DNA from: Chrysomallon squamiferum | Lineage: Eukaryota; Animalia; Mollusca | Reading direction: 5' to 3' | Length of the DNA: 64,000 nucleotides | Assembly (NCBI GenBank): GCA_012295275.1 | Contig: CM022665.1 | Coordinates: 18,910,001-18,974,000 of the forward strand | Notes under the pieces: generated by a model | Told to the model about the DNA's origin: nothing | The model's database searches: none | Seen by the model: only the letters and a program-made list of their open reading frames with translations | Shown: positions 6,119 to 58,718 of the stretch, piece by piece | How positions within the stretch are numbered: position 1 is the first letter of the stretch | Layout of the letters: each line of letters starts with the position of its first letter | Program-made: the position numbers and the translations under genes

Positions 6119-7686
6119 ATGAAGACATTCCTGTTTCTTTTTTGTTTCGTCCTGTTAGCCATCTGCATCTATGGCATACGTAAGTAAATACATAAATAAA
6201 ATTTGTAGGAAAAACTAAAATATTCAAAAATTTATATCAGTGTCATATTAATCAAAACTGTTGTAAATTTAAAAATAAATAAATAATTAAATAAATAAAT
6301 AAATAAATAAATGTTATTGAAAGAAATTTGATTCATCAAAGAAATTAGTTGAAATGTTTTGTTTTGTTTGTTTATTGTTGTTTTTTTATACCGCAAAGGT
6401 TTTTAAGATTTTATGACGAATTTTTTATGACGTTTTCAGCTCCTGGAGGTAAAGGCATACGTAGACCAGGCAACATAATGCCACAAAGACCTAGATGCCT
6501 TATGTATTGTCCTTATGGTTACGATCATTCCAAACCTTGTAGATGTCTTCCTGGTCCAAGAAATCCATGCATGGTTAGTTTTTCTTGCTGTTGTTATTTG
6601 ATTCGATATACGAATTTTGATACTGTTTTACACACACGCGCACACACACACGCACACATACACACACTCACACCTATACACAAACACAACATATTTACAC
6701 AGACATGCAGACGCATGATTGAGAGAGAGAGAGAGAGAGAGAGAGAGAGAGAGAGAGAGAGAGAGAGAGAGAGAGAGAGAGAGAGAGAGAGAGAGAGAGA
6801 TGCATACATTATATTTGATTCTTTGTATTACCGTATAATTGACGTCGTAAACGCTTTAAATAACAGTTATATAATAATTACGTGTAAAGTGTCGTACATT
6901 TTAAACAGCGCAGTTTTCACCAAATCTCCTAAACGTGCTTTCTAGCCTAAATAAAACCCACTGAAATTTCTAGGTACCAGAATCTTTCGATAAATTACTT
7001 TGCGTGGATTTTGTGACATATTTGACAAATTTCTGCCTTCATGTTTCAGACTGTTCGTTGTGCACGTGGAATGAAATGTGTTCGAAGAGGAAACCGCGGA
7101 GTTTGTGTACGCATTGGTATCATTGGACCAAGACCAGGTTTACCAAAAGGTCAGCTACGTTTTTAACATAATGTAAAAAACCAAAAAAAACCCCCCAAAA
7201 CTACCTGTCTAGTTCCTAATTATGCAAACCATAATAACCTTAAAAAAGTATATATCAGTAATATGGATTAAGAAAATACTTTGACCAATAACGTGTATGA
7301 CAGTGTGAGTGACTGTGTCTGTATGTGCGTGTGTCTGTTACAACCAGTTTACTCCCTTGTATTAAACAGTTAACAAATAAACTATGGCCGAACTATAGCT
7401 ATAAGAGTTTAAAGATTACCAATATGTGAGTACAAATAGAATAAGGTTTCAGTCAATGTTCGGGGACTGCTGTGTGAACGATTATTCTCTGTGTGACATT
7501 TCAGTCTGTCGACTGCGCAAAGTAACCGGACCCTGTCGTGCTATGCACAGACGTTTTTTTTACAACAAGAAGTCTGGCCAGTGTCAGCAGTTTATATATG
7601 GCGGATGTAGAGGGAACGGCAACAACTTCCTCACGATGGCAGAATGTCAGCAACGTTGTGGCGGATTCAGACGTAACTTCGGTTAA
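6119..7686 (+). CDS. Gene A1: secreted basic protein, signal peptide + antistasin-like + FOLN-like + Kunitz K1 (158 aa; 222 aa if spliced on to K2 at 10368-10573)
   Basis: Exons 6119-6179 ([20 protein letters not shown], donor GTAAGT), 6440-6573 ([45 protein letters not shown]), 7050-7149 ([33 protein letters not shown]), 7505-7686 ([60 protein letters not shown]). All introns GT-AG, phases 1/0/1 join in frame; AATAAA at 7762-7767. Confidence 0.9.
6721..6800. repeat. (GA)n microsatellite in the phase-0 intron of family A
   Basis: Pure GA run; equivalents at ~16346-16433 and ~25419-25498. Confidence 0.95.
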
Positions 7687-8366
7687 CGTTACAGCGACTG
7701 AGTCTTCTTAAATACAGTGGTCAACATAATATAAATAATAATATGCCTCCTTTTATTTTAAAATAAATAACTGCTTTTCCCTGAAACATGTGTGCAGTAT
7801 GATGTTGAATAATATATCTTGGATTGTTATGGCTAATATTTTAGAAGATATACTACATTTTCAGACCTACCCAGAGAGAAGTAAAAAGTATTCATTAATT
7901 TAAAATACGATATTATATGGAATGATAGTTACAATGGCCTCTAACTCTAAGATTATTTTTGAGTTTAATACAGAAAGTGCTAACAATCCCAGGTGCAAGG
8001 ATTACATACTAAAACAAATATTAATAATAAAAAGGGGTTGACACGTCCATAAGGCCAGGAGTTCAAGCCATGATGACCCTATTTTAAATACCTGTCTTCG
8101 CACGTCTGTCTAGTACAATAGTACTATTTGTCAGTCAGTTTATAAAATATACCTGAAAAAAAAAAAAATAATATAGTAAATAAACGTGAACAATTACAAG
8201 TAATATATTTTAATTCCTCTTTTTTTTATCTCTTTTCGACCGTTCGACTGTTTGCTCTTTCTTTCTATCATTTATTTATTTATATCTCAACTTATTTATT
8301 TACTTATTTCTTTTTAATCCATTTACTTAGTTCATTCTTACTTTTGCCTGTCGACATAATAATACA

Positions 8367-55500: not shown

Positions 55501-57267
55501 TGTTTGCTTGCTACATGTGACTGGTATATAACCTGTTCTGTGAAAATCACCTAAATGAACTATTACCAGCACCTACTATAAAAATGTATTTCGTTTATTC
55601 CTAAATATAACATAGCTGCTGTTCTATTACGATTTTGCCATAAATGCATAGACTCCACGCATCTGTATCTTAACATAGTCACAGCGCTGTCCAGTTTTAT
55701 AATAAAATGGCGTGACGCCATCATTTATGCGGACACACACACACAATCACACCTGCACGCACAGACACACACAGACCGGTGTAGTAGAATATTTACGTAG
55801 TTACATATACATATGTATGTAGATGTGCATTCGAGTGTTGTATGTACGCGACCCTATGCCTGCACATATGTATACATCTATATCTGTACGTTAATGACCC
55901 ATCTGTCGAAATTTCAGGACGATCTGATTATGGTCCTTAAGAATGGGAACACTGTGAACAGTCGGCATAAAGGAAACTGTAGATTATTTCTCACCAGACT
56001 ACGATCACATCCGGGTGTTTACTGCAGCAGAAATCGAACACAAGATGACACGCAGGTATCTCGTGACAATTAATCTCAGAGATGTCGTCATCCTTCAGGT
56101 CAGTGCACGACCAGTTATTTCTTGTTCTGTGTAACTTCAGCTTAGTACTCTACGTTGCCACATCCAGCCGACTCATGTCACCGACAAATTATAATCTTTT
56201 CTGTCCTTATACAACCACATACTCAATACTCGAGTCAGAAATTCATCTAAGTCTTAAGACTTTTATAAAAGAGATATTTAAGTTTGAATCTCGTTGGGAA
56301 AAGATTCTATTCGCTGATTGGCTCTATTTTTGCGGACTTCTAAAAAACGCTTGAACGTTTTCGGCCACTTGATATATATATATACAGAGAATCTGCTCTA
56401 AAATGAAAAACATTGGTACCGAATCAGTTGTTCGGTTTATTAAGATATAGGATATGGAAATAAAATGTTTTTAATTTAATTTTGAAATTTACAGCAGCTA
56501 ATTCGGAATTATTAATTTGGCTGAATGAAAACTGTGGGATAGAAACAACTAAAATAATGGCTGCTTGATGGTGGCTTATATAAACTCATTAGGTAGGAAG
56601 AGCAACACTTTTTTTGGAAGAGATTCTAATCTCCTTTCTAATGAACGGAGTACACATGTTTATTTCTGATACAAACATAAGTTCTTTAAATGACAAAAGC
56701 TGTTCAAAGGATAATCAAACAGCTATGAGGCGATCAATCACAACAACCAAGAAACGCTGCATTGAGCATGCGTGTGTCAGTTTTTTCAGAACCTAGGACA
56801 ACTAATTTATATAGTTTAGACAGTCAACATATGTTGCATGTTTCTGACTGTCAGAAGTACAATTTGTATTAAATAAACACAACAGGACTGGGCAGTGTGT
56901 TTGGTATTGAGAGTACAGGGTTTTCTGTTTTCAGGGATTATTTTCACTACTTAAAGCTCTGTACCTCATAGGACCAGGAAGTAAGCTGGGTTCTGAAGGG
57001 GAATTCGGTTTACAGAGGGTTCGGTTTAGCAGAGTTTATTCAAATCATGATGATAATGATGATGATGAAGATGATGATAATAATAATAATTATAATAATA
57101 ATAATAATAATAATAATAATAACAATGATAATAAACTGAACAGAAAGCACCTCATCCGTATCGCATAGTAATTAACAGATAAGAATTAAAAACAAAACTG
57201 AAAAACGAACAACTCAATTTATTAAATTGAAAATTATTTTGACTTCATTTCATAAACGATACGGCTC

Positions 57268-58718
57268 TTAAGAATCTTGGCTTTGATCTGACTGATACAT
57301 TATTGGTGTCCTCGGCCATATTGGTGACGTTGGCCACATTCTACCACCACAGCGTCTCTGACACTGTCTCCATGAGTAGAAGTTGTTTCGGTTTCCTCCG
57401 CACCCTCCGTATATGAATCTTTGGCACCGCCCTGTAAATCTGTTGTAGAAATAACGTCTAAAGGAGCCGAAACACGGTCCAGGGTTCACAGGTAGAAAGC
57501 ATCCTGTAAAATCAGGAAAAAAATCTGTAATTCTGAACAGTTGAAACATAACAAAACTAGGAGAAACTTTATAATAAATAATGAACTAATGTAATTAATG
57601 TAAACGGTCTTTACGTCAGTATCCATCGCGTTACAAATGGAGCCTGAATTAATGTTGAATATTACATTAAAACACCTTTCATTCGTTTACTAATTCTCTG
57701 AATTCATGATGCATAATATTAAAAGACTTGATATATCAATATCACTCAGTTGATAATATAGAAAGTTTTTATTAATCGAGTGATATAAAATTATCAAAAT
57801 AAGCTCCGGAGCTTTGTCCAAAGTATAAAAGGTAACAGCTTCTAATACTGAATTTATACACAAAAGGTTTGTGTTATACACAAGTGAGTAGGATAACATA
57901 CTTGATCTAATGGTAATTGGGACACAGACTCCTCGAAATCTTCTTTGCACACATCTCAATCCTGGTCCGCAGTTCATGTTCTTAAAACGATAATGTTTGT
58001 TGTATATTCAGTTAAACAGTATAAACGAAGACATAGAAAAGAGAGAGAGAGAGAGAGAGAGAGAGAGAGAGAGAGAGAGAGAGAGAGAGAGAGAGAGAGA
58101 GGGGTTGTTGGAAAGAATCGAGATAACACTTGTACAGCGTGTGTTTTGTTGATATAATTTATCGTTGTAATTACAATGACGTTAAACAAAGCATTTAAAA
58201 AAAAAAAAAAAAAGGGAATTAGAGATACAGTTATATACTGAATTAAAAAATGATAACTTACCCAACATGGATTCCAGACGCCACCAACTAAAAATAAGAT
58301 ACACGCATAAGTTGTGATATTTATAAATACATTCATATTTATTAAAATTATATTTATAGTGGGAATCCTATTATAATGCCATTTTAGAAAATGTCTTACT
58401 TATATACAATCAACTATATACATGACGATAATGATCAGATAGGTCAACAAACACTACTTATTTTTAATTATTATTAATTTTTTTACATCTTTTTTATTTT
58501 ATTTGATCATGTTAAATAAAAATAAAACACTTAAAGAATAAGAAGATAATAGGATACATTGAAGCTCTTTGTAAATAATGTTCTATGAGTCTGCAGTATT
58601 TTCTAATAAAAAACAACTAAAACACGCTGGTGTGTAAGACTGACTTACTCTGCGCATTGCTCTCAGTGTACAGGACAGCCAGAGAAACAGCAAACAAAAG
58701 AAGAATGGCGAATTTCAT
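57268..58718 (-). CDS. Gene B5: secreted FOLN-like + Kunitz protein (136 aa)
   Basis: Exons 58718-58649, 58287-58262 (IGGVWNPCW), 57980-57902, 57503-57268. Intron 1 is only ~120 nt, versus ~390 nt in B1. Confidence 0.92.

What the first reader, a model, noticed from the sequence alone, without database searches (positions are those of the whole stretch)
6119..58718. Expanded two-family cluster of secreted, highly cationic mosaic Kunitz inhibitors that the ORF track misses
Seen: eight complete spliced genes (3 A + 5 B) plus a partial one, all with intact splice sites and the same layout (non-coding exon 1, signal exon, phases 1/0/1, Kunitz exon). Known: Kunitz/BPTI domains are serine-protease inhibitors and are recruited into invertebrate secretions (venoms, mucus, shell organic matrix). 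Inference: this is a dosage-amplified secretory protection system of one tissue, with A and B derived from one ancestor. I do not recognise this domain combination as a named gene, but I cannot establish novelty without a search.
Basis: partly seen in the sequence, partly recalled or inferred. Interest (0 to 1): 0.8.

Follow-up and report, generated by a model that had tools for sequence, protein, structure and literature searches.

The report
Snail shell Kunitz inhibitor gene cluster
Eight near-identical, intron-split genes encode strongly positively charged Kunitz-type proteins that are likely secreted to protect a deep-sea vent snail's shell matrix from proteases; the protein type is already known, but the three A genes likely swap between two alternative inhibitor end-exons.

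Summary
The cluster is real: 3 A and 5 B genes, intact, phases 1/0/1, mature net charge +15 to +27. One RNA contig joins two A introns and fixes the exon-4 donor. The domain combination is not new. Gene A matches a RefSeq Gigantopelta aegis protein over its whole length at about 50%. Its domain coordinates match a scaly-foot snail (Chrysomallon) model found in 5 of 5 shell proteome samples and highest in mantle (PMC11871041 supplement; its sequence was not seen). That model aligns to pearl-oyster NSPI3, an antistasin+Kunitz shell protein. So this is most likely a mantle-secreted shell-matrix protease inhibitor family: A with P1 Arg, B with P1 Phe and without the antistasin-like module. The finding text omits that each A unit carries a second, intact, constrained Kunitz exon (K2) with no signal exon of its own, and three units a dead third one (K3). 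The Gigantopelta gene has isoforms that swap Kunitz domains at the same junction, so K1/K2 are likely alternative last exons. Verdict: new variant of a known kind; moderate interest.

The parts
674..879 (+). K2 Kunitz exon of a fourth A unit cut by the window start (A0)
   Evidence: phase-1 acceptor, open frame, stop, AATAAA behind
2137..2295 (+). K3 relic Kunitz exon (A0); first Cys codon is a stop
5016..5067 (+). A1 TATA box (5016) and predicted non-coding exon 1 (5046-5067)
   Evidence: no RNA junction seen
6097..7686 (+). Gene A1: exon 2 6097-6179 (ATG 6119, predicted signal peptide), exon 3 6440-6573 (Pro/Arg linker + four-Cys antistasin-like motif), exon 4 7050-7149 (four-Cys follistatin-N-like module, completed), K1 Kunitz exon 7505-7686 (P1 Arg)
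   Evidence: junctions by homology to the RNA-supported A3 junctions
10368..10573 (+). K2 Kunitz exon of A1 (P1 Arg), likely alternative last exon
11834..11992 (+). K3 relic Kunitz exon (A1): five Cys, second Cys is Gly, out of phase with the exon-4 donor
   Evidence: (Pfam 53.9 bits)
14724..17306 (+). Gene A2: TATA 14724, exon 1 14754-14775, exon 2 15703-15785 (ATG 15725), exon 3 16065-16198, exon 4 16683-16782, K1 17125-17306
19993..20198 (+). K2 Kunitz exon of A2
21470..21628 (+). K3 relic exon (A2); first Cys codon is a stop
24355..26368 (+). Gene A3: TATA 24355, exon 1 24385-24406, exon 2 24799-24881 (ATG 24821), exon 3 25142-25275, exon 4 25747-25846, K1 26187-26368
   Evidence: RNA contig joins 25275>25747 and 25846>26187
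28277..28482 (+). K2 Kunitz exon of A3 (no K3 follows)
30884..32828 (+). Gene B1: TATA 30884, exon 1 30913-30947, exon 2 31340-31422 (ATG 31353), micro-exon 3 31816-31841, exon 4 32117-32195, Kunitz exon 32593-32828 (P1 Phe, Trp/Pro tail)
   Evidence: predicted, no RNA laid
38750..40704 (+). Gene B2: exon 1 38779-38813, exon 2 39195-39277, exon 3 39671-39696, exon 4 39987-40065, Kunitz 40469-40704
44603..46524 (-). Gene B3: exon 1 46461-46495, exon 2 46028-46110, exon 3 45616-45641, exon 4 45229-45307, Kunitz 44603-44838
51067..53012 (-). Gene B4: exon 1 52949-52983, exon 2 52496-52578, exon 3 52058-52083, exon 4 51696-51774, Kunitz 51067-51302
57268..58916 (-). Gene B5: exon 1 58853-58887, exon 2 58649-58731 (ATG 58718), exon 3 58262-58287, exon 4 57902-57980, Kunitz 57268-57503

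Best explanation
This is a tandem and inverted array of eight intact spliced Kunitz genes (3 A, 5 B), likely from a peltospirid vent snail, whose cationic products are likely secreted by the mantle into the shell's organic matrix and are predicted to protect it from serine proteases. Shown: gene anatomy, charge, Kunitz domains, constraint on the exons, and two A splice junctions. Inferred: (1) the signal exon sends the protein out of the cell; (2) the Arg-rich surface holds it on acidic matrix proteins; (3) the Kunitz loop inhibits trypsin-like enzymes in A (P1 Arg) and chymotrypsin-like ones in B (P1 Phe), and A's shortened antistasin-like loop (P1-equivalent Leu) may be a second site; (4) copy number raises dose; (5) A's exon-4 donor splices to K1 or, skipping it, to K2, each with its own stop and poly(A) signal, giving two proteins with one N-terminus and different inhibitor domains and tails; K3 is a third such exon that has died.
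For: Full-length homologue: Gigantopelta aegis 'BPTI/Kunitz domain-containing protein 4-like' X1-X3, 49-53% identical to both A forms over 150-166 residues, with all 14 mature Cys aligned. Shell link: Chrysomallon model Csqv2.0_6571_0.18 has Pfam Kunitz at 99-150, and its BLAST match to Pinctada NSPI3 runs from residue 40 to 150. Gene A has its first module Cys at 40 and its Kunitz at 100-150, but only with the RNA-shown donor; the other donor gives 89-139. That model was scored in 5 of 5 shell samples and is highest in mantle (23.7 vs 0.75-6.3 in four other tissues). NSPI3/4 is listed as an antistasin+Kunitz shell-matrix protein pulled down by a matrix ZP domain (PMC9290575 Table 1). Alternative last exon: K2 has a phase-1 acceptor, open frame, stop and AATAAA in 4 of 4 copies; K1-K2 dS 1.43, dN 0.27; K2 copies vary at 5 of 206 sites against 12 of 155 in flanks (p=0.023); no signal-type or module exon lies between K1 and K2. 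G. aegis X1/X2 and X3 are identical up to the first Kunitz Cys (X2 lacks four residues near the N-terminus) and then carry different Kunitz domains and tails. P1 residues.
Against: The Chrysomallon match rests on coordinates; its sequence was not seen, and its shell scores are low (3.7-9.7 against up to about 170 for others). It is also expressed in foot and oesophageal gland. No B product was matched to any proteome: the only Chrysomallon Kunitz entry among the 32 hits shown from the stored, cut supplement is the A-type model (one search showed 30 of 32). The antistasin and follistatin-N labels fail Pfam. Signal peptides are judged by hydrophobicity only. K1 and K2 share P1 Arg, so a switch would change specificity little. 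G. aegis isoforms are automatic annotations whose read support I did not see. No inhibition was measured.
Confidence: 0.7

Rival explanations
1. The proteins are mainly antimicrobial or immune effectors of the body surface or symbiont organ: Arg-rich, disulfide-stabilised peptides that damage microbes or block microbial proteases, found in shell only as passengers.
For: Charge is extreme for Kunitz domains (2 of 522 as high). The matched model is also expressed in foot and oesophageal gland. Peltospirids host symbionts in that gland (PMC7895826 passages). Shell scores are low.
Against: Mantle is the top tissue, about four times the next. The nearest described relative, NSPI3/4, is a shell-matrix protein. 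The canonical loop is intact in K1, K2 and KB. This rival and the best explanation can both hold.
Confidence: 0.2
2. K2 is not an alternative end but is joined behind K1 through an internal donor in the K1 exon, giving a two-Kunitz protein.
For: Two phase-1 GT sites lie just before the K1 stop (7673, 7682). Multi-Kunitz proteins with the same kinds of modules exist (P0018, P0096).
Against: 7673 lacks both G at -1 and G at +5, and 7682 lacks G at +5, which all six printed gene donors have. K1 has its own stop and AATAAA. The G. aegis isoforms carry one Kunitz domain each.
Confidence: 0.1
3. K2 is an unused leftover, like K3, and each A gene makes one protein.
For: K3 shows that surplus end-exons do die here. 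Units are so young (94-98% alike) that decay would barely show among copies.
Against: K2 has diverged from K1 to dS 1.43 yet keeps all six Cys, the frame, the acceptor and the poly(A) signal; it varies less than its flanks. The related gene has two annotated ends.
Confidence: 0.15
4. The copy number is inflated by mis-assembly of alleles.
For: Proteins are nearly identical and the region is rich in simple repeats.
Against: All pairs differ by 2-6% with indels, B copies lie in both orientations, spacers differ, and intron differences far exceed exon differences.
Confidence: 0.05

Closest known systems
Gigantopelta aegis BPTI/Kunitz domain-containing protein 4-like, isoforms X1-X3 (XP_041352664-8; P0135-P0137)
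   Same: Same architecture as gene A, 14 mature Cys, about 50% identity over the full length, cationic (+19 to +21), P1 Arg, two Kunitz ends on one N-terminus.
   Different: Automatic annotation only; its copy number was not examined. The window has three or four A units, a relic third end-exon, and five B genes with P1 Phe and no antistasin-like motif.
Chrysomallon squamiferum shell protein Csqv2.0_6571_0.18 (PMC11871041, supplement rows)
   Same: Kunitz at 99-150, alignment start at residue 40, length at least 157: all fit gene A. Probably this gene or a near-identical orthologue.
   Different: Listed only as 'kunitz-type protease inhibitor 2'; the word Kunitz does not occur in that paper's main text. 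Sequence not seen.
Pinctada nacre serine protease inhibitor NSPI3/4 (antistasin + Kunitz)
   Same: Shell-matrix protein with antistasin then Kunitz domains; 35.7% over 115 columns to the Chrysomallon model, residues 40-150.
   Different: Longer N-terminus (match starts at its residue 94); scores as Pfam antistasin, whereas A keeps 4 of 6 Cys and does not. That RefSeq's 'protein 4' name derives from this protein is my recall, not checked.
BPTI/Kunitz family (Pfam PF00014)
   Same: Six-Cys spacing and canonical loop in K1, K2 and KB.
   Different: Far more basic than most; preceded by small Cys modules.
Unnamed invertebrate antistasin/follistatin-N-like + Kunitz proteins (P0018, P0096, P0103, locus L059)
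   Same: Same order of modules; L059 has two Pfam antistasin hits, a four-Cys-like module and a Kunitz exon.
   Different: Several Kunitz or Kazal repeats, or full six-Cys antistasin domains; weak similarity to A's N-terminal part (z 3-5 for P0018 and P0096).

Membership tests
BPTI/Kunitz (PF00014) | Pfam score above cut-off | tested here: met
   K1 72.4, K2 72.1, KB 66, K3 53.9 bits against 21
BPTI/Kunitz (PF00014) | Six Cys at 8/15/7/12/3 spacing (K1, K2, KB) | tested here: met
   12 of 12 such exons
BPTI/Kunitz (PF00014) | Six Cys and a usable exon (K3) | tested here: not met
   Second Cys is Gly in 3 of 3; first Cys codon is a stop in 2 of 3; out of phase with exon 4
BPTI/Kunitz (PF00014) | Tight-binding inhibition through P1 | not testable with these tools
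   P1 read by position: Arg, Arg, Phe; the link of P1 to enzyme class is established knowledge, recalled
Antistasin (PF02822) | Pfam hit | tested here: not met
   No hit at E up to 10 for A exon 3 or the G. aegis protein; P0134, which repeats the motif, scores 16.7 bits, under the 21.2 cut-off
Antistasin (PF02822) | Six-Cys pattern | tested here: not met
   Four Cys (40, 44, 54, 56). Aligned to a Pfam-positive domain in L059 (9 of 26 identical, pairwise E 8e-05), the gap removes the fourth Cys. That Cys 1 and 4 form one disulfide is recalled
Antistasin (PF02822) | Fold | tested here: inconclusive
   Single-sequence model pLDDT 64; no Foldseek or VIA match
Follistatin-N (PF09289) | Pfam hit | tested here: not met
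   None for either exon 4 alone or the intact G. aegis module
Follistatin-N (PF09289) | Four-Cys 4/5/8 spacing and look-alike features | tested here: inconclusive
   Spacing present in A and B (pattern recalled); Atlas top hit is a TILa/FOLN cluster at 0.77, a lead only
NSPI3/4-type shell-matrix inhibitors | Antistasin-type plus Kunitz architecture with signal peptide | tested here: inconclusive
   A has a shortened antistasin-like motif, B none; NSPI3 sequence not available to compare directly
NSPI3/4-type shell-matrix inhibitors | Present in shell, made in mantle | tested here: inconclusive
   True of a published model that matches gene A by coordinates only

The most novel reading that the evidence does not exclude
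Peltospirid vent snails keep, since before the Gigantopelta split, a shell-inhibitor gene that works as a cassette: one secreted antistasin-like/follistatin-N-like anchor with an array of alternative last exons, each a whole Kunitz domain with its own tail and poly(A) site, chosen by tissue or shell layer. End-exons are born and die (K3), and a whole-gene duplicate (B) has fixed a chymotrypsin-type end. Use of K2 alone is likely (about 0.75); the shared origin and regulated choice are the uncertain parts (K2 vs G. aegis X3: 38 of 51 identical, against 34 of 51 within either species; tree unresolved).
Probability: 0.3. Interest if true: 0.6.

Novelty: new variant of a known kind. Interest (0 to 1): 0.4.

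Why it matters
Protease inhibitors recur in shell proteomes, but their targets and role are still hypotheses (PMC5824581 passages). This locus offers small proteins with contrasting P1 residues and a testable exon switch. It also shows how such genes diversify at two levels, end-exon duplication and whole-gene duplication, which a single gene model and tryptic proteomics under-report: these Arg-rich proteins give only 6-7 peptides of 7 or more residues. It does not open a new kind of system.

Tried and rejected
No whole genome was held. Run search: no RNA holder listed. None of the 3 RNA runs laid gave a joint into K2, exon 1 or exon 2; only one contig touched the gene at all, so this is no evidence either way. 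Gene B has no read support here, as no reads were laid on it. My first exon-4 donor for A (7117) was overturned by the RNA contig. Word-based homologue searches: K1 gave 80 of 86 candidates, all generic Kunitz proteins; A exon 3 none; KB 56 of 57, none near-identical. These missed the G. aegis protein, so the lack of a B homologue is weak evidence. Of the 3 hits, P0133 was dropped as a low-complexity repeat. AlphaFold on the G. aegis protein failed (pLDDT 41) and was not searched. Fold searches with the exon-3 model gave nothing. PDB sequence searches with exons 3 and 4 and P0134 gave nothing below E 0.29. The Kunitz tree (34 rows, 51 columns) left all six rows of interest unresolved or on a long branch. 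A proxy test of K1 or K2 against the published BLAST counts used a different Haliotis species and leaned only weakly to K1. 80 metagenome loci held no close relative of the N-terminal modules. Earlier scan findings: none. Ten paper searches listed no paper on this cluster or on alternative Kunitz last exons in molluscs; most hits were seen as listings only. Marie et al. 2012 was not held. A venom reading was rejected: the homologue evidence points to shell and mantle.
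Full report
Observation. A six-frame scan finds 12 exons with the six-Cys Kunitz spacing, of three types: K1 (3 copies), K2 (4) and KB (5). A profile scan adds a fourth, degenerate type, K3 (3 copies). The left half of the window is a 9.6-kb tandem unit (A); the right half holds five B units, two on the plus strand and three on the minus strand. Splicing by coordinates gives eight open frames with intron phases 1/0/1: A 158 aa, B 136 aa. Mature net charge is +24 to +27 for A and +15 for B, with the signal cleavage point assumed. 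The Kunitz cores alone are +9/+10, a level reached by 2 of 522 cores in the 132 proteins fetched by then. All eight genes have the box TATAAGTAAGA 29-30 nt before a TCA initiator-like site and a 22- or 35-nt exon with a good donor; the box occurs 9 times against 0.15 by chance, one match being intronic. Coding sites vary much less than introns among copies (A 9 of 477 vs 64 of 878, p 1e-5; B 2 of 411 vs 155 of 830, p 9e-27). This could reflect selection or gene conversion; with 2-6% differences and indels between all pairs it argues against a mis-assembly.

Expression. Four runs were laid on the A3 region. One 264-nt contig of RNA run X4 (depth 2.9) joins exon 3 to exon 4 and exon 4 to K1 at GT..AG ends. 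It corrected my model: the exon-4 donor is 33 nt later than the first in-phase GT. That is one contig in 1 of 3 RNA runs. The B models are predictions; they are supported by invariant exons against variable flanks.

Anatomy. A: predicted signal peptide, Pro/Arg linker, a four-Cys motif (Cys 40, 44, 54, 56), a second four-Cys module split by the phase-0 intron (64, 69, 75, 84), then Kunitz (100-150). B lacks the first motif: its exon 3 is a 26-nt micro-exon that supplies only the first Cys of the second module. A and B N-terminal parts are related (z 10, 0 of 500 shuffles). Pfam recognises only the Kunitz domains. The first motif aligns to a Pfam-positive antistasin domain from locus L059 (9 of 26, pairwise E 8e-05) with a gap over the fourth Cys. 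I read it as an antistasin domain that has lost one disulfide (connectivity recalled), not as a member. The second module resembles follistatin-N by spacing (recalled) and by a sub-threshold Atlas lead. Folding settled neither. P1 is Arg in K1 and K2, Phe in KB.

What it is. An exhaustive search with A exon 3 gave 3 hits in 1.84 billion proteins. One is Gigantopelta aegis 'BPTI/Kunitz domain-containing protein 4-like', about 50% identical to gene A end to end and 49-59% to B over the shared part. This places the window, by inference, among peltospirid vent snails. The supplement of a Chrysomallon squamiferum shell and sclerite proteomics paper (PMC11871041; I saw main-text passages and rows of supplementary file 3, which is cut; file 4 could not be read) lists one Chrysomallon Kunitz protein, Csqv2.0_6571_0.18, with Pfam coordinates 99-150 and a BLAST match to Pinctada NSPI3 from residue 40 to 150. 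These fit gene A to the residue, while the G. aegis protein has other coordinates (93-144 in X2). The sheet is headed shell proteins; the protein was scored in 5 of 5 samples, at low scores, and is highest in mantle. I did not see its sequence. NSPI3/4 is tabulated as an antistasin+Kunitz shell-matrix protein that binds a matrix ZP domain (PMC9290575, one passage with Table 1). A genome-paper supplement already lists a Kunitz family with 5 Chrysomallon copies and P 2e-5 (PMC7142155, supplement rows only, one file not searched); whether that is B is unknown. So the domain combination is known and the shell role is the best-supported one.

What the finding text leaves out. Every A unit has K2 1.9-2.7 kb behind K1. 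K2 has a phase-1 acceptor, an open frame, a stop and an AATAAA in 4 of 4 copies, and no signal-type or module exon of its own was found. It is old (dS 1.43 to K1) and constrained (dN 0.27; 5 of 206 variable sites against 12 of 155 in flanks, p 0.023). The G. aegis isoforms X1/X2 and X3 share the N-terminus up to the first Kunitz Cys and then carry different Kunitz domains and tails, which is what alternative last exons would give at this junction. I therefore read K1 and K2 as alternative last exons (about 0.75); no read into K2 has been seen. A two-Kunitz read-through is less likely because the in-phase GT sites in K1 are weak and K1 has its own stop and poly(A) signal. K3, 1.26 kb further on in three units, keeps a polypyrimidine tract and a Pfam score of 53.9 bits but has lost its second Cys, is out of phase with exon 4, and begins with a stop in 2 of 3 copies: a dead end-exon. 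Whether the K1/K2 pair predates the split from Gigantopelta is open; K2 is closest to X3 (38 of 51), but the tree is unresolved.

Mechanism. Most likely the mantle secretes these proteins; their positive charge holds them on acidic matrix; the Kunitz loops block trypsin-like (A) and chymotrypsin-like (B) proteases; gene copies raise the dose; and A varies its inhibitor end by splicing. Anatomy, charge and two junctions are shown. Secretion, matrix binding, inhibition, tissue and use of K2 are inferred. Protection of matrix proteins is itself a hypothesis in the field (PMC5824581 passages). The main rival is an antimicrobial role, which does not exclude the first.

Other papers seen, as passages only: PMC7895826, PMC7736800, PMC3374290, PMC13425148; PMC13663368 as one passage, one section and a supplement search, which showed no splicing claim for NSPI3. 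Ten searches listed no paper on this cluster or on Kunitz last-exon choice in molluscs; the library lacks most subscription journals, and unseen supplements may bear on this.

Verdict. Observation confirmed; interpretation partly supported; novelty of the architecture refuted. What remains is a recently amplified, likely shell-related inhibitor locus with a probable last-exon switch and a derived P1-Phe paralogue: a new variant of a known kind, interest 0.4.

Noticed in passing
window 8366-9035 and its copy near 17985-18655: Element with terminal inverted repeats in the K1-K2 interval, holding a short frame that resembles a pogo/Tigger N-terminus (recalled; no Pfam hit). It is much shortened in unit A3; the DNA run shows very high depth at its ends.
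   Followed up: partly
window 34334-34723 (+) and 42677-43066 (-): Short frame with a mariner-like transposase motif (recalled; no Pfam hit) inside a 3.1-kb inverted duplication that links B1 and B3.
   Followed up: partly
window 1-624, 10044-10318, 19608-19943, 27649-28227: A 41-nt minisatellite of variable length directly upstream of every K2 acceptor region; it could affect K2 use.
   Followed up: no
window 59767-60352 and 63120-63742: Old inverted repeat, 71% alike over about 650 nt, beyond B5.
   Followed up: no
window 11834: In unit A1 only, K3 is open from a phase-0 acceptor, so the phase-0 donor of exon 3 could in principle splice to it; no evidence that it does.
   Followed up: no
window 25779 and 26314: The RNA contig carries A3's base at the first site and a base seen in A1 at the second, so it may come from another allele or copy.
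   Followed up: partly
P0134: Unnamed 162-aa secreted-looking protein with four repeats of the same four-Cys motif, separated by Lys-Arg/Lys-Lys sites, like a multi-peptide precursor; sub-threshold antistasin score.
   Followed up: partly
L059:1575-3046: Unnamed animal locus with antistasin, antistasin plus a four-Cys-like module, and a Kunitz exon in the same order as gene A.
   Followed up: partly
PMC11871041 supplement, models Csqv2.0_6571_0.5 to 0.36: Eight similarly numbered models, all highest in mantle; seven have no annotation in the rows seen and may include the other cluster genes.
   Followed up: no
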